Shown here: positions 1-4,673 of the stretch, piece by piece
Position numbering within the stretch: the stretch's first letter is position 1
Layout: each line of letters begins with the position of its first letter
Program-made: the position numbers and the translations under genes
Virus record (IMG/VR): IMGVR_UViG_3300029006_000023
Coordinates: 1 to 4,825 of that record
Length of the DNA stretch: 4,825 bases
DNA from: a virus
Lineage: Duplodnaviria; Heunggongvirae; Uroviricota; Caudoviricetes
Strand: one strand, 5' to 3'
Notes under the pieces: model-generated
What the model was told of the DNA's origin: nothing
Seen by the model: only the letters and a program-made list of their open reading frames with translations
Databases searched by the model: none

Positions 1-2068
1 CCGTCAGGGTGTATTCCCCGAGCGGCAGGCCACTGAAACGGTGCTCCGTGTCTGCAGTGATAGCGGTGGTCACCAGACGGCTGTCTTCACCGCTTCCGCT
101 GGTCAGTCGCAGACTGAAGCGCACGCCCTTCACCACCCGCGGCGTGTCCCATTTCGCCTGCGCCAGATACTGGCCGTCAGCGGCGCTCACCTCCACCGTA
201 AGGTGCTGCACTGCCGGTGGGATGACGCTGTTCAGGGTGCCTGACTGCGGCTCAAAGCTGGCCCCGTTATCCACGATGGCTTCTTTTTCCGGCACATGCT
301 GCACTGCCGTGATGGCAAAGGTGCCGTCCGTGTTTTCCCGGATGGAGACACAGCGGAACAGGCGACGACGCAGTGACGGCAGGGAGAGTCCCCACACCCC
401 GTATGTCTCCACACCATCCGGCAGGGTACTGACCTGTATCCGGTCCGGCGCGGGGTGTGCAGTGATGTCCACGCTCACCGGCTTACCGCTGCCGTTAATC
501 AGGTTCACCGTCGAAGTACCTGTCTCTGGCAGGCTCACCTCACGGTCCAGTGTCAGGGTGCGGCTGGCGGCATCAATGGACAGGATGCGTCCGCCGGTCA
601 TGGTCCCGGCATAGTCGTTATCACAGATTTCAATAATGTCACCGGGTGTGTGACGCAGCCCCTGTGACCCGAGCGTGAAATCCACCGTCTGCGTTTCCAG
701 CAGTTCGGTCTTTATCACCCACAGCCCGGCACGGTGGGCCTGACCGCGACTGGTGCAGCCGAACGCATCCATCTTCAGCAGGTTGCGCCCGTAGCGCAGT
801 ATGGCGTCCGGGTCTTCCACCAGTTCCGTGGAGGTCTGCCAGCCGTTCTGCGGGTCGGTGTAATTCACCTCCACCGCCGTGTGACGGTCCTTCAGGGCAC
901 TGAAGCTGTAGCGGAACCCCACGCCGTTATCATCCACCACCACATCGCTGTTGGTGTACGGCCACACCACATCCGACGGGCGGTCCTGAACGAACGTCAG
1001 CGTCTGGCCGTTCCATACCGGCATACAGCGCATCGCCGAGCAGAAATCACTGAGGACGTCCCACGCCTTACGCTGTTGTGACAGGTACGCATTAAAGGTC
1101 ATCCGCGGCTCTGTGCCCCCGAAACCATCCGGGACCATCTGGTCGCAGTACTGCCCGATGGCATACAGCGCCCATTTGTCCACATCCGCCGCCCCCAGGC
1201 GTTTTCCCATTCCGTAACGCGGATGAGTCAGCATGTCCCACAGGCACCAGGCCGGGTTGTTGCTGTATGCCGGTTTCAGGCTGCCGTCCCAGATGCCGCT
1301 GTAAGTGCGTTTTTCCGGGTCATAGTTTGACGGCACCTGGATGATGCGACCGCGGATATGGTAGTTCACCGTCATCTGCTGACCGCCAAACTGCTCCGCA
1401 TCCACCTGCAGGCCCACAATCGCCGTGTTCGGGTAGCACTGTTTCACATCGATGATTTCGGTGTATGACGACCACAGCGTCTTATTCTGCAGCTGGTCCG
1501 TGGTGCTGTCCGCCGTCTCCCGGACCATCCGGATGTTAAAAGGACGCTCAGGCAGGTTATCCAGAATCACCGACGCCAGAAACTGCGAGGTGGTCTTGCC
1601 ATTAATGGTGACATCCTTTTCCGTCACCCAGTTACCGTTACGCTGTAACTGAATCAGCAGCCGGACAGAAGCCGGATTACGGTCACCCTCTGACGTGGTC
1701 TGCACCAGTGACTGCACCCCGAAGGTGACCCGCAGGCGGTCAATGTTCGCGGACGTAATGGTGCGCGTCACCGGCTTTGCCTTCGTCACTTCCACGCCCA
1801 GTGCGGTTTCAGCTCCGGAGGACTCAAAGCCTTCGGGTGGTGTCTGCTCCTGCTCCCCGGCGCGCCAGACCGCGGTCACACCGTGTATCACGGGATTACC
1901 GTCCGTGTCCGTCAGCGGGGTTTTGTTCACCAGAATACTCTGCAGTCCCTTCACCGGACCTTCAATCGGCCCTTCACCAATGGCGTCAATCACGCTCATC
2001 ATCTGCGTGGACTTAAGATTGTCCTTTGCCTCAACCGGCGTGTGCGCCTTGCCGCCACCTTTGCCCAC
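1..2068 (-). CDS. J: Tail tip / central tail fibre host-specificity protein J, N-terminal ~689 codons (partial; 3' end lies beyond window start)
   Basis: Not in the ORF track because it runs off the window. My manual minus-strand translation from GTG (complement of 2066-2068) gives VGKGGGKAHTPVEAKDNLKSTQMMSVIDAIGEGPIEGP..., continuing with no stop to position 2. It matches my recollection of the lambda J N-terminus (MGKGSSKGHTPREAKDNLKSTQLLSVIDAISEGPIEGP...) and contains conserved blocks such as CYPNTA, WCLWDMLTHPRYGMGKRLG, DAFGCTSRGQAHRAGLW and AITAVQHVPEKEAIVDNG. An in-frame TGA lies 25 codons upstream of the GTG. An alternative in-frame GTG exists at 2083-2081. Confidence 0.9.
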   Translation of the reverse strand, partial: MGKGGGKAHTPVEAKDNLKSTQMMSVIDAIGEGPIEGPVKGLQSILVNKTPLTDTDGNPVIHGVTAVWRAGEQEQTPPEGFESSGAETALGVEVTKAKPVTRTITSANIDRLRVTFGVQSLVQTTSEGDRNPASVRLLIQLQRNGNWVTEKDVTINGKTTSQFLASVILDNLPERPFNIRMVRETADSTTDQLQNKTLWSSYTEIIDVKQCYPNTAIVGLQVDAEQFGGQQMTVNYHIRGRIIQVPSNYDPEKRTYSGIWDGSLKPAYSNNPAWCLWDMLTHPRYGMGKRLGAADVDKWALYAIGQYCDQMVPDGFGGTEPRMTFNAYLSQQRKAWDVLSDFCSAMRCMPVWNGQTLTFVQDRPSDVVWPYTNSDVVVDDNGVGFRYSFSALKDRHTAVEVNYTDPQNGWQTSTELVEDPDAILRYGRNLLKMDAFGCTSRGQAHRAGLWVIKTELLETQTVDFTLGSQGLRHTPGDIIEICDNDYAGTMTGGRILSIDAASRTLTLDREVSLPETGTSTVNLINGSGKPVSVDITAHPAPDRIQVSTLPDGVETYGVWGLSLPSLRRRLFRCVSIRENTDGTFAITAVQHVPEKEAIVDNGASFEPQSGTLNSVIPPAVQHLTVEVSAADGQYLAQAKWDTPRVVKGVRFSLRLTSGSGEDSRLVTTAITADTEHRFSGLPLGEYTLT

Positions 2069-2072
2069 GGAA

Positions 2073-2080
2073 TCCCCCTT
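2073..2080 (-). promoter_or_regulatory. Shine-Dalgarno for J (AAGGGGGA on minus strand), 4 nt upstream of GTG start
   Basis: Minus-strand sequence reads gaagggggattccGTG; purine-rich SD at appropriate spacing. Confidence 0.5.
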
Positions 2081-2109
2081 CACTGTCCGCTGCCGGACAC
2101 TGTTGATGT

Positions 2110-2141
2110 ACAAAAACAACAGGCACCCCGGAGAGTGCCTG
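2110..2141 (-). terminator. Terminator-like hairpin oriented for the minus strand, ~40 nt upstream of J start
   Basis: Plus-strand caggcac (2120-2126) and gtgcctg (2135-2141) form a 7-bp GC-rich stem with an 8-nt loop. On the minus strand the stem is followed by UUGUUUUUGU (complement of 2110-2119). Function not established. Confidence 0.4.
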
Positions 2142-2179
2142 CATCATGACGGAATAAAAATTCTGAATATCTTCACATT

Positions 2180-2207
2180 TTCACAAACAGCCTGTGGCGC
2201 TTATAAT
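2180..2207 (+). promoter_or_regulatory. Candidate sigma70 promoter on plus strand: -35 TTCACA (2180-2185), 16-nt spacer, -10 TATAAT (2202-2207)
   Basis: Perfect consensus -10 hexamer, -35 matching TTGACA at 5 of 6, spacing 16 nt. Sits in an AT-rich island and is preceded by a tandem TTCACA-TTT-TCACA repeat (2172-2185). Predicted start around 2214-2216. Confidence 0.5.
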
Positions 2208-2213
2208 TTCACC

Positions 2214-2312
2214 GCGCTAATGTTTTTTTGCCCGAGTAACAGAAACAAAAATAACTCCTTAACGTTAATCTTTGTCTGTCCCCGCAGCTCCGCAACTCTG
2301 CGGGATTTTTTT
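2214..2312 (+). ncRNA. Candidate small non-coding RNA (~100 nt), antisense to the tail late operon, in the I-J intergenic insertion
   Basis: Bounded by the promoter above and the intrinsic terminator below. The only ATG (2221) opens a frame with no SD that reads through the terminator without a stop. Contains six consecutive A-R-N triplets (AAC AGA AAC AAA AAU AAC, 2238-2255) and ends in a GC stem plus U7. Confidence 0.4.
2281..2312 (+). terminator. Rho-independent terminator on plus strand
   Basis: cccgcag (2281-2287) pairs with ctgcggg (2298-2304), 7-bp GC-rich stem with 10-nt loop; alternative 5-bp stem ccgca/tgcgg with 4-nt loop. Followed by a single A and then TTTTTTT (2306-2312). On the minus strand the stem is followed by gacagac, not a U-tract, so it is unidirectional. 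Confidence 0.6.
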
Positions 2313-2318
2313 ATGCTT

Positions 2319-2999
2319 TTACCCCTGCCGCCCGATAACCACCACCTTCCCGCCAGCGCCTTCATCACGGGTGCTGACGTCCTGGGATATTCGCCGGGAG
2401 CCAACCAGCATTTCACCGTAAGGCACCGGCATCGGATTACCCTGGGCAATCATGTTATCCAGCGACGAAAAGTAGGTGTTCTGTTTACCGTTATCCGTTG
2501 CCCTGTATTCCGGTGTTTTGGGCTTCGGGGCAAGCATCTGAGCCACACCACCCAGAATCATGCTGGCCCCCAGTGAAAACAGCATCGTGGTGGCAGAAAA
2601 ACCACCGGCTGCCAGGGCTGAACCCCATAACGCCATTGATGCCCCGGCCGTGAAGAACGACCCCACGATGGCCGCCGCCCCCAGCACAATCTGCAGTCCG
2701 CCCTTTCCGGCTCCGGCCAGTCGCGGCACAATGTGGATGACCGTTCCCTCACCCAGTTGTTCGTGAAGACGGGCGTACACCGCCTCCGGTGCCGTGTCCT
2801 CACCGCGAATACGTATCTGGTACCAGCCTTCGTTCATCTGACGGCGGAATCCCGGCATCTGCATCGACAGGGCGCGAATGGCTTCCGCTGCCGTGTTCAC
2901 ATACAGGCTGAGGCGGCGGCCAAATCGTTGTAAATCCCCGTGAAGGCAGATGCGTGCCAGTGGCGGTGACGCCAGACAGAATGCGTTCGTCGTTGCCAT
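2319..2999 (-). CDS. I: Tail tip assembly protein I
   Basis: 226-aa ORF (MATTNAFCLASPPLARICLHGDLQRFGRR...NGKQNTYFSSLDNM...VVVIGRQG) closely resembling lambda gpI as I recall it. Hydrophobic Gly/Ala-rich central segment. Start overlaps the K 3' end by 103 nt out of frame, as in lambda. Upstream GAGAGG could serve as SD. Confidence 0.9.
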   Translation of the reverse strand: MATTNAFCLASPPLARICLHGDLQRFGRRLSLYVNTAAEAIRALSMQMPGFRRQMNEGWYQIRIRGEDTAPEAVYARLHEQLGEGTVIHIVPRLAGAGKGGLQIVLGAAAIVGSFFTAGASMALWGSALAAGGFSATTMLFSLGASMILGGVAQMLAPKPKTPEYRATDNGKQNTYFSSLDNMIAQGNPMPVPYGEMLVGSRRISQDVSTRDEGAGGKVVVIGRQG

Positions 3000-3640
3000 T
3001 TTTCGGAATACCTCTCCCGTTTACTCAGTTGTTCAGGCAGATGGTGAAGCAGTTCACCGTTGCCGCAGTAAATGGCGGCATGATTGGCCACCGATGCGCC
3101 AAAGCAGCACAGCAGGATATCGCCCGCCTGTGCAGAGGACAGGGGCACCCGGTAAAAGCCCGTTGCCTCCATATTGTCCAGGTACAGGTTCTGACCGTTG
3201 CGCCACCACTCATCCTCACGGTGAAAATCCGGCATCTCAATCCCCGCCAGATGGTATGCATCCCGGAACAGGGTGTAACAGTCCGTCACCCCGTGCTCAA
3301 AGCGCCGTCCGGTCAGGTGCGGCACACAGCGGAATTTGTGAATGTCACCCCGGCAGACCAGCCACCAGGGCAGTGCGCTTTTTATCTGCAGCCGCCGGTC
3401 TGCCTCGCTCAGCCAGGGCAGACCACCGGGATGACTGTGGACCAGTGCCACAATCTCCCCCTGCATCTCTGCCCGCAGCCAGTCTTCCGGTGCAATACGA
3501 AAATACGCCTCCGGCTCTGCAGAGATATTCACACAAGGGATATAGCGCTCCCCCTCCGGCGTTCTCACCACAAAGCCGCACGACTCCGCAGGCGCACACC
3601 GCCGGGCATGCGCCAGAATCGCTGATTCTGTCTGTGTCAT
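2897..3640 (-). CDS. K: Tail tip assembly protein K (MPN/JAMM plus NlpC/P60 domains)
   Basis: 247-aa ORF starting 5 nt after the L stop. Contains H68-S-H70-x7-S78-x2-D81 (HSHPGGLPWLSEAD), a JAMM/MPN metal-binding motif, and a downstream GVTDCY Cys typical of NlpC/P60. Matches my recollection of lambda K; the start could be internal, but the tight L-K spacing favours 3640. Confidence 0.88.
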   Translation of the reverse strand: MTQTESAILAHARRCAPAESCGFVVRTPEGERYIPCVNISAEPEAYFRIAPEDWLRAEMQGEIVALVHSHPGGLPWLSEADRRLQIKSALPWWLVCRGDIHKFRCVPHLTGRRFEHGVTDCYTLFRDAYHLAGIEMPDFHREDEWWRNGQNLYLDNMEATGFYRVPLSSAQAGDILLCCFGASVANHAAIYCGNGELLHHLPEQLSKRERYSEKWQRRTHSVWRHRHWHASAFTGIYNDLAAASACM

Positions 3641-3645
3641 TGGAT

Positions 3646-4344
3646 TTACTGCGAAAGTTTATTAATGGAAAGGAAACCGCCAAAATTGCCGACATTGTTG
3701 CGCATCTCACACCCGCGCATGCACTTGCTGCATTTGTCCTTTGTGATATCGGACGTCGGCTGGTCATACTCATCCGCCACCGCCCCGCCCGTGTAACCAC
3801 ACTCATCAGAGCGGTAGGTCCACATACAGGTGTTCGCCAGCATGATGCGACCGGGAAACAGCGCCCCGTCCGTCTCCGTCGGCGTGGCCAGCACAAACGA
3901 GGCCGTCATGGCCGTCAGCTCTGACATCTGCTCCACCACCCAGCGGTCGGTCAGCTCCTGCTCCGGGTCTGCCTCAGGATTGCCTGCCACAAAGTTCACC
4001 GCATCCAGAAAACGCGCATACACCCGACGGCGGACCACCGTGGCCCCCACCAGACTCTGCAGGTCCTCCGCCATACCGGTGACAAGACCGAACAGATTGG
4101 ACACCGTCAGCGACGGTCTGGCACTGCTGCCCTTCCCGTTCATCTCAAAGCCGCTGCCCTCAATCGGGTACGCCTCATACTTCCGCCCCTGCCAGGTCAC
4201 CGGCTCCCCTTTTTCATTCAGCTCATTGCAGAAAAAATACCGCTCACCGCCCTGCACCGTCAGGTCGATTTCCCAGAGCACCACCCGCGGTGACTGCTCT
4301 GATTTCACCGACTCATTCAGACTTTCTTCATGAATATCCTGCAT
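3646..4344 (-). CDS. L: Minor tail protein L
   Basis: 232-aa ORF (MQDIHEESLNESVKSEQSPRVVLWEIDL...CSKCMRGCEM...) matching lambda gpL in length and sequence as I recall it. C-terminal cysteine cluster (ECGYTGG...DKCSKCMRGC). Start ATG overlaps the M stop (TGATG). Confidence 0.93.
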   Translation of the reverse strand: MQDIHEESLNESVKSEQSPRVVLWEIDLTVQGGERYFFCNELNEKGEPVTWQGRKYEAYPIEGSGFEMNGKGSSARPSLTVSNLFGLVTGMAEDLQSLVGATVVRRRVYARFLDAVNFVAGNPEADPEQELTDRWVVEQMSELTAMTASFVLATPTETDGALFPGRIMLANTCMWTYRSDECGYTGGAVADEYDQPTSDITKDKCSKCMRGCEMRNNVGNFGGFLSINKLSQ

Positions 4345-4673
4345 CAGTTCACCACCTGCTTAAACTCGGCACTGAATTCAACCCGCAGCATCCCGACCCG
4401 CGCAGACCACCCGGCGCAGGTCACCTTTATCTGCCGGTATGCATAGGGTGGCTTCCACAAAAATGCCTTCCAGCCCCCGTGCTCTGCCAGGAATGCTTCC
4501 AGATGCCGGGCCTCCTCCCGGGTCACGGAAAGCATCACCCGGTATGTTTTCAGGTCAGCATTCAGCCCTGCCGCCATACGCTGCGAATAGCCGTCACCAA
4601 AACGCACTTCACGCACCGACGGCTGCGAGTTCACCTCCATATCCGGCTTCACTTTCCAGCGAAAGGTTTTCAT
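4344..4673 (-). CDS. M: Minor tail protein M
   Basis: 109-aa ORF (MKTFRWKVKP...LRVEFSAEFKQVVN), same length as and near-identical in my recollection to lambda gpM. Start ATG overlaps the H stop (ATGA). Confidence 0.93.
   Translation of the reverse strand: MKTFRWKVKPDMEVNSQPSVREVRFGDGYSQRMAAGLNADLKTYRVMLSVTREEARHLEAFLAEHGGWKAFLWKPPYAYRQIKVTCAGWSARVGMLRVEFSAEFKQVVN

What the first reader, a model, noticed from the sequence alone, without database searches (positions are those of the whole stretch)
2238..2255. Six consecutive A-R-N triplets and a CA-rich tract in the candidate sRNA body
The predicted transcript contains AAC-AGA-AAC-AAA-AAU-AAC directly upstream of the terminator hairpin and U7 tail. 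(ARN)n repeats are the recognised Hfq distal-face motif, and an intrinsic terminator with a poly-U tail is the Hfq proximal-face signal, so together they resemble a class II Hfq-dependent sRNA or an sRNA sponge. The C/A-rich composition is also the kind of sequence bound by GU-rich seeds such as GcvB R1, which raises a seed-mimic possibility; that part is speculation.
Basis: inference. Interest (0 to 1): 0.5.

Follow-up and report, generated by a model that had tools for sequence, protein, structure and literature searches.

The report
Prophage Hfq-binding small RNA, long-ARN allele
The A-rich triplet tract is real and lies in a prophage small RNA gene between tail genes I and J; the gene is a variant of EcOnc22/23/24, a known Hfq-bound RNA of E. 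coli O157 whose targets are still unknown, and the suggested mimicry of GcvB targets is not supported.

Summary
There are seven in-frame A-R-N triplets (2235-2255), which is rare in shuffled sequence. They sit in a predicted ~99-nt + strand transcript with an 11/12 sigma-70 promoter, a terminator hairpin and a U7 tail.

The gene fills the gap between lambdoid tail genes I and J and runs antisense to them. It is homologous to the I-J gaps of Sakai prophages Sp15, Sp14 and Sp11. Those gaps encode EcOnc22/23/24 of Tree et al. 2014: an Hfq-CRAC peak, a ~85-nt northern band, and loss of stability in a hfq deletion. The published northern probe and the CLASH reads match that RNA exactly.

Hfq dependence is therefore shown for the family, but not for this allele. 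Across 22 alleles only the terminator is a conserved structure. An A-rich tract of 2-7 triplets sits next to a conserved box, AACUCCUUAAC..UUAAUCUU. The Sakai allele has 3 triplets and the window has 7. This long allele occurs in 286 of 5426 complete E. coli genomes.

A class II-like Hfq mode is plausible but untested. GcvB mimicry fails: there is no CACAACA, the predicted duplex is no better than shuffles, and none of the CLASH hybrid rows I could read involves GcvB. This is a new allele of a known sRNA family, of modest interest.

The parts
1..2068 (-). 5' part of tail tip gene J. The GTG start is at 2068-2066 and the product begins MGKGGGKAHTP.
   Evidence: Pfam FNIII-A_GpJ, Phage-tail_3 and Ig_J. 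Annotated gpJ in the identical genome region.
2110..2142 (-). Terminator-like hairpin (2142-2119) followed by UUGUUUUUGU on the late-operon strand, just upstream of J. It bounds the I-J insert and is not part of the + strand sRNA.
   Evidence: The fold is -19.3 kcal/mol, z -4.1, and 0 of 200 shuffles fold as well. Variants keep the pairing as G.U on the - strand, or by a double change.
2143..2179 (+). Conserved A/T-rich stretch upstream of the promoter (CATGACGGAATAAAAATTCTGAATATCTTCACATTT). It may be an UP-like element; that reading is inference.
   Evidence: Nearly invariant across alleles.
2180..2207 (+). Sigma-70-type promoter: TTCACA, 16-nt spacer, TATAAT.
   Evidence: 11 of 12 consensus matches. 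The ATAAT of the -10 is conserved across most alleles.
2214..2312 (+). Predicted ~99-nt sRNA, an allele of EcOnc22/23/24. The start is inferred from the -10 position and is not mapped.
   Evidence: Homology to the Sakai I-J gaps. Published probe and CLASH reads. Fold.
2222..2229 (+). 5' U-rich tract, GUUUUUUU.
   Evidence: Present in most alleles.
2235..2255 (+). (ARN)7 tract AGU AAC AGA AAC AAA AAU AAC, the candidate Hfq distal-face module. It is the hypervariable part of the family.
   Evidence: Alleles carry 2-7 triplets, and in most the run ends directly at UCC.
2253..2272 (+). Conserved single-stranded box AACUCCUUAACGUUAAUCUU, the candidate pairing region. It contains the anti-Shine-Dalgarno-like CUCCUUA.
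   Evidence: Best conserved non-terminator block among 22 alleles. This region is the sRNA half of the yjbJ and ettA CLASH hybrids.
2281..2312 (+). Intrinsic terminator: 7-bp stem CCCGCAG/CUGCGGG with a 10-nt loop, then A and U7. An alternative 6-bp stem lies at 2289-2304.
   Evidence: All 7 pairs are kept in 22 alleles, and one pair changes G-C to A-U in 2 alleles.
2319..2999 (-). Tail assembly gene I. Its stop codon lies 6 nt beyond the sRNA U-tail.
   Evidence: Pfam Lambda_tail_I. Annotation.

Best explanation
The tract is the A-rich module of a prophage-encoded, Hfq-associated small RNA that is an allele of EcOnc22/23/24. The gene is a small self-contained insert between lambdoid tail genes I and J, and it is transcribed antisense to the late operon.

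Steps shown or predicted from sequence: a near-consensus sigma-70 promoter (2180-2207) should give a ~99-nt RNA that ends at an intrinsic terminator with a U7 tail (2281-2312).

Steps inferred: the hairpin plus U-tail binds the proximal face of Hfq. The seven A-R-N triplets (2235-2255) bind the distal face, which has six A-R-N pockets per hexamer by established Hfq structural knowledge. This would make it a class II-like sRNA. The adjacent conserved, unstructured box AACUCCUUAACGUUAAUCUU is presented for base pairing with target RNAs in trans. Its CUCCUUA core looks like an anti-Shine-Dalgarno seed, so repression of translation is the most likely outcome.

Identity as an EcOnc22-family sRNA is about 0.95 certain. 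The roles of the ARN tract and the box are inference. The targets are unknown.
For: Context: genes M, L, K, I and J lie on the - strand. The promoter matches 11/12 and a terminator follows.

Homology: the window is 85% identical, column by column, to the Sakai Sp15 I-J gap, and the Sp14 and Sp11 copies are identical to Sp15 over the sRNA gene.

Experimental identity: Tree et al. Table S2 lists EcOnc22/23/24 as Hfq-CRAC peaks on this strand, ~85 nt by northern and destabilised in a hfq deletion. The reverse complement of their northern probe, GTTAATCTTCATCGTTCTCTCCC, matches the Sakai RNA body exactly. CLASH reads labelled EcOnc22-24 read GCCTGAAAAATAACTCCATAACGTTAATCTTCA. They fix the coordinate offset between genome versions at +135 to +137, which places the CRAC peak from 3 nt upstream of GCCUG into the terminator loop.

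Family pattern: among 22 alleles only the terminator is a conserved structure, with one compensatory pair. The body is otherwise unstructured. An ARN run of 2-7 triplets ends at UCC in most alleles. The box after it is the best conserved block, and AACTCCTTAAGG recurs in a diverged second module in some contigs.

Statistics and spread: a 7-triplet run is rare in shuffles. The family is in 1647 of 5426 E. coli genomes with up to 7 copies and in Stx1a, Stx2a and Stx2c phages. The long-tract allele is in 286 genomes.

Precedent: Tree et al. showed that ARN motifs mark distal-face sites and that AgvB uses one.
Against: There are no expression or Hfq data for this allele. The Sakai allele has only 3 triplets. 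By my count it fails the ARN4m1 and ARN5m2 criteria, yet it binds Hfq and depends on it, so the long tract is not required for Hfq association. In the window allele the minimum-energy fold pairs ACAGA, CAAA and UAAC of the tract with downstream UCUGU, UUUG and GUUA, which would partly hide the tract. That helix is not conserved, since own-allele pairings are no better than cross-allele pairings, and the whole fold is not unusual (z -1.35). The CRAC peak is too broad to assign the contact to the tract. The CLASH hybrids are one or two reads each and fall inside coding sequences (yjbJ, ettA), not at ribosome-binding sites. Rfam has no model for this RNA.
Confidence: 0.55

Rival explanations
1. 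The RNA is a sponge (anti-sRNA) in the manner of AgvB or AsxR. It would sit on the Hfq distal face through the ARN tract and sequester a core-genome sRNA. GcvB, bound through a C/A-rich mimic of its targets, is the specific candidate the first reader raised.
For: Prophage-encoded anti-sRNAs with an ARN motif next to the mimic sequence exist in the same strains. The ARN region is the hypervariable part of the family, as the 5' domain is in AgvB and AsxR.
Against: There is no CACAACA in the transcript even with one mismatch. Against GcvB R1 the longest Watson-Crick helix is 5 bp, and -13.0 kcal/mol is matched or beaten by 78% of shuffles. AgvB gives 10 bp and -21.0 kcal/mol, matched or beaten by 0.3% of shuffles. 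The whole body is no better than shuffles. None of the EcOnc22-24 CLASH rows I could read has an sRNA partner, against 82 AgvB-GcvB hybrids in the same data. The conserved box carries CUCC, which is regulator-like, and not a GGAG-like target mimic. There is no sequence similarity to the conserved AgvB/AsxR 3' domain, and the locus is different.
Confidence: 0.1
2. The RNA is a cis-antisense regulator or a source of transcriptional interference. Because it is transcribed against the late operon, it is fully complementary to the I-J spacer of the late mRNA of its own prophage and of co-resident prophages with the same allele. It could trigger cleavage of the duplex or collide with late transcription, and so lower J and downstream tail expression.
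For: In every related locus examined that has both flanks, the gene sits between I and J and is antisense to them. The promoter is strong in this allele. Multiple identical copies occur per genome.
Against: The RNA overlaps neither the I stop codon nor the J start, which lies 146 nt beyond the predicted sRNA 5' end. A pure antisense role does not predict a conserved box flanked by variable segments, dependence on Hfq, or trans hybrids. There is no direct evidence either way.
Confidence: 0.13
3. The sRNA is real, but the extra triplets are neutral. On this view the tract is a slippage-prone low-complexity spacer whose length drifts, and Hfq binding rests on the terminator, the U-tail and U-rich parts.
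For: Tract length varies from 2 to 7 triplets among alleles. The 3-triplet Sakai allele is Hfq-bound and Hfq-dependent. The window differs from Sakai by a 12-nt insertion or deletion in the tract, as repeat slippage would give. In this allele the tract is partly paired in the predicted fold.
Against: An A-rich run in ARN phase, ending at UCC, is kept in most alleles despite heavy turnover of the surrounding sequence. All pyrimidines in the window tract are in phase. The long allele is maintained in 286 genomes of several serotypes.
Confidence: 0.2

Closest known systems
EcOnc22/EcOnc23/EcOnc24 of E. coli O157:H7 Sakai prophages Sp15 (Stx1), Sp14 and Sp11 (Tree et al. 2014, PMC4104026; reviewed in PMC7873438)
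   Same: Same locus (the I-J gap), same strand relative to the tail genes, same promoter position, the same conserved box and terminator, and a U7 tail. Column identity over the gap is 85%.
   Different: The window allele has 12 extra nucleotides (AGTAACAGAAAC), which raises the ARN run from 3 to 7 triplets. It has a consensus TATAAT -10 and a better -35, where Sakai has AATAAT. The box reads CCUUAACG where Sakai reads CCAUAACG. The linker before the terminator also differs. The function of the family was still listed as unknown in 2021, and the later papers I found do not cover it.
Class II Hfq-dependent sRNAs such as ChiX and CyaR
   Same: The layout matches: an A-rich ARN module, an adjacent anti-Shine-Dalgarno-like pairing region, and a terminator with a long U-tail. 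Some alleles resemble these RNAs locally. The Sakai module CUGAAAA--AUAACUCCAUAA resembles the CyaR 5' end CUGAAAAACAUAAC-CCAUAA (0 of 1000 shuffles score as well). Another allele shares GGCAUAAUAAU with ChiX.
   Different: It matches no Rfam family at E-value 1 or better. The window allele itself shows no significant similarity to CyaR or ChiX. It also carries a 5' U-rich tract. Dependence on the distal face has not been tested.
AgvB and AsxR prophage anti-sRNAs (Tree et al. 2014)
   Same: Prophage-encoded and Hfq-bound, with an ARN motif in a variable region and a conserved 3' part with a terminator.
   Different: They lie at a different locus, the moron site 3' of PR', in convergent pairs. 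They are 51-60 nt long and unrelated in sequence. The window RNA has no GcvB complementarity comparable to that of AgvB.
HnrS (EcOnc10/11/12), a multicopy prophage sRNA that represses hha (PMC13502914)
   Same: A multicopy Hfq-associated sRNA carried in the late region of EHEC and EPEC lambdoid prophages. It acts on a ribosome-binding site in trans.
   Different: It is a different gene: 66 nt, in Sp9, Sp10 and Sp12 at other coordinates. I did not compare the sequences directly.

Membership tests
EcOnc22/23/24 sRNA family | Located in the gap between lambdoid tail genes I and J, and transcribed antisense to them | tested here: met
   Pfam identities of I and J. The Sakai peaks lie in the I-J gaps of Sp15, Sp14 and Sp11.
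EcOnc22/23/24 sRNA family | Sequence homology to the RNA detected by the published probe and CLASH reads | tested here: met
   85% column identity over the gap. The box and terminator are shared. The probe complement and the CLASH reads match the Sakai allele exactly. In the window allele the probe site differs in the linker, so the exact 23-mer is absent.
EcOnc22/23/24 sRNA family | Own promoter and intrinsic terminator giving an RNA of about 85 nt | tested here: met
   By prediction only: an 11/12 promoter, a hairpin and U7. The predicted length is 99 nt, against about 91 nt predicted for the Sakai allele.
EcOnc22/23/24 sRNA family | Hfq crosslinking and loss of stability in a hfq deletion | not testable with these tools
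   Shown for the Sakai allele only.
Class II Hfq-dependent sRNA | Rho-independent terminator with a long U-tail (proximal-face signal) | tested here: met
   7-bp stem plus U7, conserved in 22 alleles.
Class II Hfq-dependent sRNA | Accessible A-R-N repeats (distal-face signal) | tested here: inconclusive
   Seven perfect triplets are present. In this allele they are partly paired in the predicted fold. No structure in this region is conserved across the family.
Class II Hfq-dependent sRNA | Stability depends on distal-face residues of Hfq and not on rim residues | not testable with these tools
   This needs Hfq Y25D and R16A strains or EMSA.
AgvB/AsxR anti-sRNA family | Encoded 3' of PR' at the moron site, in a convergent sRNA pair | tested here: not met
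   The gene lies in the I-J gap, within the tail genes.
AgvB/AsxR anti-sRNA family | Conserved ~42-nt 3' domain (GUAUCUCAUGC.AUUGCCCGAAC...) | tested here: not met
   No match in the window with up to 3 mismatches. The reference sequences come from the primers.
GcvB R1 target or mimic | CACAACA-type C/A-rich element with extended complementarity to R1 | tested here: not met
   No CACAACA with up to one mismatch in 2209-2312. The duplex is no better than shuffles, while the AgvB control is clearly better.

The most novel reading that the evidence does not exclude
The A-rich tract may be an exchangeable Hfq distal-face module whose length and sequence are under selection. On this reading, alleles with 2 to 7 triplets set how strongly a multicopy prophage sRNA competes with host class II sRNAs and mRNAs for Hfq; some alleles resemble the 5' modules of CyaR or ChiX. 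The 7-triplet allele would fill all six distal pockets, so the prophage could shift the host Hfq network as well as regulate specific targets.
Probability: 0.12. Interest if true: 0.55.

Novelty: new member of a known kind. Interest (0 to 1): 0.3.

Why it matters
EcOnc22/23/24 is one of several Hfq-bound sRNAs of Shiga-toxin and related prophages that still has no known target. Relatives of this RNA occur in about 30% of complete E. coli genomes, often in several copies. The alleles keep one box and vary the A-rich tract next to it. That gives two concrete handles for experiments: a candidate seed, and a natural series of tract lengths (3 versus 7 triplets) for testing Hfq-face usage. The result also removes a tempting but unsupported link to GcvB.

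Tried and rejected
- Rfam at E-value 1 or better found no family at this locus.
- I scanned genome contigs with a 16-mer anchor. The species range outside E. coli was therefore not assessed.
- AgvB identity is rejected. It lies at a different locus and is unrelated in sequence.
- The GcvB mimic is rejected.
- I ran RNAduplex of the sRNA against the translation-initiation regions of 32 prophage genes. It gave only long, loop-filled duplexes of no discriminating value.
- A conserved central hairpin that would present the box is rejected. Own-allele pairings average -2.7 kcal/mol and cross-allele pairings -3.3 (p = 0.93). RNAalifold finds only the terminator.
- A small ORF on the late-mRNA strand behind the AAGGAG complement of the box is rejected. 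Start, frame and stop differ between alleles, and two alleles have none. On the + strand, the ATG at 2220 has no Shine-Dalgarno sequence and is not conserved, and the frame runs off the terminator.
- The label 'asxR2' for this locus in one CLASH table is a find-and-replace artefact (EcOnc2 changed to asxR), not a functional name.
- I found no good - strand promoter by eye that could use the - strand terminator.
- Similarity to CyaR and ChiX is allele-specific, involves low-complexity sequence and followed several comparisons. I treat it as a lead only.

Full report
**Context.** The window is the tail region of a lambdoid prophage read on the - strand. It holds M (4344-4673), L (3646-4344), K (2897-3640), I (2319-2999) and the first 689 codons of J (from 2068 down to 2). 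Each was identified by Pfam. A 250-nt gap (2069-2318) separates I from J, and the finding lies in it. A 236-nt stretch spanning the gap (2090-2325) is 100% identical to a prophage next to the trp operon in the bovine E. coli strain UTAK-6. That genome has nothing annotated in the gap.

**Observation.** Positions 2238-2255 are AAC AGA AAC AAA AAT AAC. The preceding AGT also fits, so the run is seven A-R-N triplets at 2235-2255. A run of seven or more appeared in 2 of 2000 dinucleotide-preserving shuffles of the window, 19 of 20000 shuffles of the gap and 0 of 20000 shuffles of the transcript body. On the + strand there is a promoter, TTCACA-16-TATAAT (2180-2207, 11/12 matches), and a terminator, CCCGCAG-N10-CTGCGGG, followed by A and U7 (2281-2312). 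The predicted RNA is about 99 nt (2214-2312). The tract is 25 nt from the hairpin, not directly against it. It is A-rich rather than C/A-rich.

**What it is.** Rfam has no match. DNA similarity finds the gap in 1647 of 5426 complete E. coli genomes, with up to 7 copies per genome, and in Stx1a-, Stx2a- and Stx2c-converting phages.

In O157:H7 Sakai, the I-J gaps of prophages Sp15, Sp14 and Sp11 carry identical homologues of the gene. Tree et al. 2014 (PMC4104026, Table S2) list EcOnc22, EcOnc23 and EcOnc24 in those three prophages. They are Hfq-CRAC peaks on the strand antisense to the tail genes. The northern band is about 85 nt, and the RNA is destabilised in a hfq deletion.

Their coordinates refer to an older genome version, so I checked the mapping in two independent ways.
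- Their northern probe 'EcOnc22/23/24' has the reverse complement GTTAATCTTCATCGTTCTCTCCC. This is an exact 23-nt match to the Sakai gap, just 5' of the terminator.
- RNase E-CLASH reads labelled EcOnc22-24 (Waters et al., PMC5286369) read GCCTGAAAAATAACTCCATAACGTTAATCTTCA at old coordinate 2902717. This fixes the offset at +135 to +137.

With that offset, the CRAC peak runs from 3 nt upstream of GCCUG into the terminator loop. The A-rich tract starts 8 nt inside its 5' edge. The window gene is therefore an allele of a known Hfq-associated sRNA. A 2021 review lists its targets as unknown. Later papers from the same field characterise other EcOnc RNAs, HnrS (EcOnc10-12) and EcOnc27, but not this one.

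**Family anatomy.** I collected about 80 related loci from IMG/VR, using one anchor inside the RNA and one outside it. These reduced to 48 distinct sequences and 22 alleles less than 93% identical to each other.
- Conserved parts are the ATAAT of the -10, GCGUUA near the predicted start, a U-rich run, the box AAYUCC(U/A)UAA..UUAAUCUUC, the terminator stem and the U-tail.
- RNAalifold finds only the terminator as a conserved structure. All seven pairs are kept, and one pair changes from G-C to A-U in two alleles.
- The segment between the U-run and the box is hypervariable, with insertions and deletions. It still contains an in-phase ARN run of 2-7 triplets that in most alleles ends directly at UCC.
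- Sakai has 3 triplets (AAA AAU AAC). The window has 7 because of 12 extra nucleotides.
- The long-tract allele, allowing at most 2 mismatches over 43 nt, occurs in 286 of 5426 genomes, including O157:H7 and O121.

**Structure of this allele.** The minimum-energy fold pairs part of the tract with the linker: ACAGA with UCUGU, CAAA with UUUG, and UAAC with GUUA. The fold as a whole is not unusual (z -1.35). The helix does not covary across alleles, because own-allele pairings are no better than cross-allele pairings. I treat it as incidental, but it leaves the accessibility of the tract in this allele open.

**Mechanism.** Homology plus published experiments show that this is an independently transcribed, Hfq-associated sRNA. 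The rest is inferred.
- The U7 tail and hairpin would bind the proximal face of Hfq.
- The ARN tract would bind the distal face. Seven triplets could fill all six pockets of the hexamer, by established Hfq structural knowledge.
- The conserved box next to the tract would be the pairing region.
- Its CUCCUUA core resembles an anti-Shine-Dalgarno seed. The RNA therefore looks like a regulator rather than a target mimic.

The available CLASH hybrids are one or two reads each. They involve yjbJ (a 10-bp match, CCAUAACGUU with AACGUUAUGG), ettA, ECs4701, ECs5163, an antisense transcript and rRNA. The yjbJ and ettA sites lie inside coding sequences. They point to the box as the interacting region but do not define a target.

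- Hfq-dependent sRNA: supported for the family.
- Class II mode: plausible and untested. The 3-triplet Sakai allele already binds Hfq, so a long tract is not required.
- GcvB mimic: not supported. There is no CACAACA with up to one mismatch in the transcript. Against R1, the best Watson-Crick helix is 5 bp, and -13.0 kcal/mol is matched or beaten by 78% of shuffles. AgvB gives 10 bp and -21.0 kcal/mol, matched or beaten by 0.3%.
- CLASH support for a GcvB link is absent. The hybrid rows I could read for EcOnc22-24 contain no GcvB, while the same dataset has 82 AgvB-GcvB hybrids. Those data are for the short allele.
- AgvB and AsxR are unrelated in sequence and sit at a different phage locus.

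**Rivals kept open.**
- Cis-antisense action on the late I-J mRNA, or transcriptional interference. The position and orientation fit. The conserved box, the Hfq dependence and the trans hybrids are not predicted by this idea.
- Neutral length drift of a slippage-prone spacer.
- A sponge for some other sRNA.

**Verdict.** The element is a new, longer-ARN allele of the known prophage sRNA family EcOnc22/23/24. The class II or sponge assignment is undecided. The GcvB speculation is not supported. Interest is modest.

Noticed in passing
window 2110-2142, - strand: A strong hairpin (-19.3 kcal/mol, z -4.1) followed by UUGUUUUUGU lies on the late-operon strand, about 40 nt upstream of the J start codon. 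In related loci, two variant classes keep the stem as G.U only when it is read on the - strand. One class shows a full compensatory change (CAGGCAT/ATGCCTG). One singleton is a wobble only on the + strand. It looks like an intrinsic terminator inside the late operon that Q-modified polymerase would read through. Its purpose is unknown.
   Followed up: partly
L009, L016, L019, L020; L006, L034, L065 (IMG/VR contigs): Some phages carry two sRNA modules in tandem in the I-J gap. In L006, L034 and L065 the first module is diverged. It has a different terminator but keeps an A-rich run followed by AACTCCTTAAGG.
   Followed up: partly
L001 1353-1372 (Sakai Sp15) versus MG1655 cyaR (L222 215-301) and chiX (L223 205-288): The A-rich module of the Sakai allele (CTGAAAA--ATAACTCCATAA) resembles the 5' end of CyaR (CTGAAAAACATAAC-CCATAA); 0 of 1000 shuffles score as well. 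Another allele shares GGCATAATAAT with the ARN module of ChiX. The window allele shows no significant match. The sequences are low-complexity and several comparisons were made, so this is a lead only.
   Followed up: partly
L001 around 1353 (old Sakai coordinates 2902716/7): In the CLASH reads I saw that cover this region, the sRNA part begins at GCCUG, about 16 nt downstream of the predicted start. One read joins a ...CUGCGGGAUUUUUUU 3' end directly to GCCUGAAAAAUAAC. This suggests a processed 5' end that would put the ARN tract at the very 5' end of the RNA.
   Followed up: no
Supplementary file 4 of PMC5286369: EcOnc22 appears as 'asxR2' and EcOnc21 as 'asxR1'. This looks like a find-and-replace of 'EcOnc2' by 'asxR' and should not be read as a functional name.
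   Followed up: yes
L225 (O157:H7 TR01) and window 2289-2304: The O157 TR01 long-tract allele has a shortened terminator, CCCGCA-ACTC-TGCGGG. This is the alternative 6-bp hairpin also possible in the window. Its tract reads AGC ACC AGA AAC AAA AAT AAC, with one triplet broken.
   Followed up: partly
L221 16493-19979; L225 1-2: J is annotated as frameshifted in UTAK-6 and in O157 TR01. These prophages may therefore be defective while the sRNA gene stays intact.
   Followed up: no
window 1695-2576, + strand: A 293-codon open frame runs antisense through J, the gap and I, in the same frame as the ARN triplets. It has no conserved start in other alleles and the sRNA terminator lies inside it, so I regard it as spurious.
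   Followed up: partly
window 2112-2123, + strand: A second, shorter ARN run (AAA AAC AAC AGG, 4 triplets) with AACAACA lies just upstream of the hairpin and outside the predicted sRNA. On the - strand it is the U-tract of the terminator.
   Followed up: no
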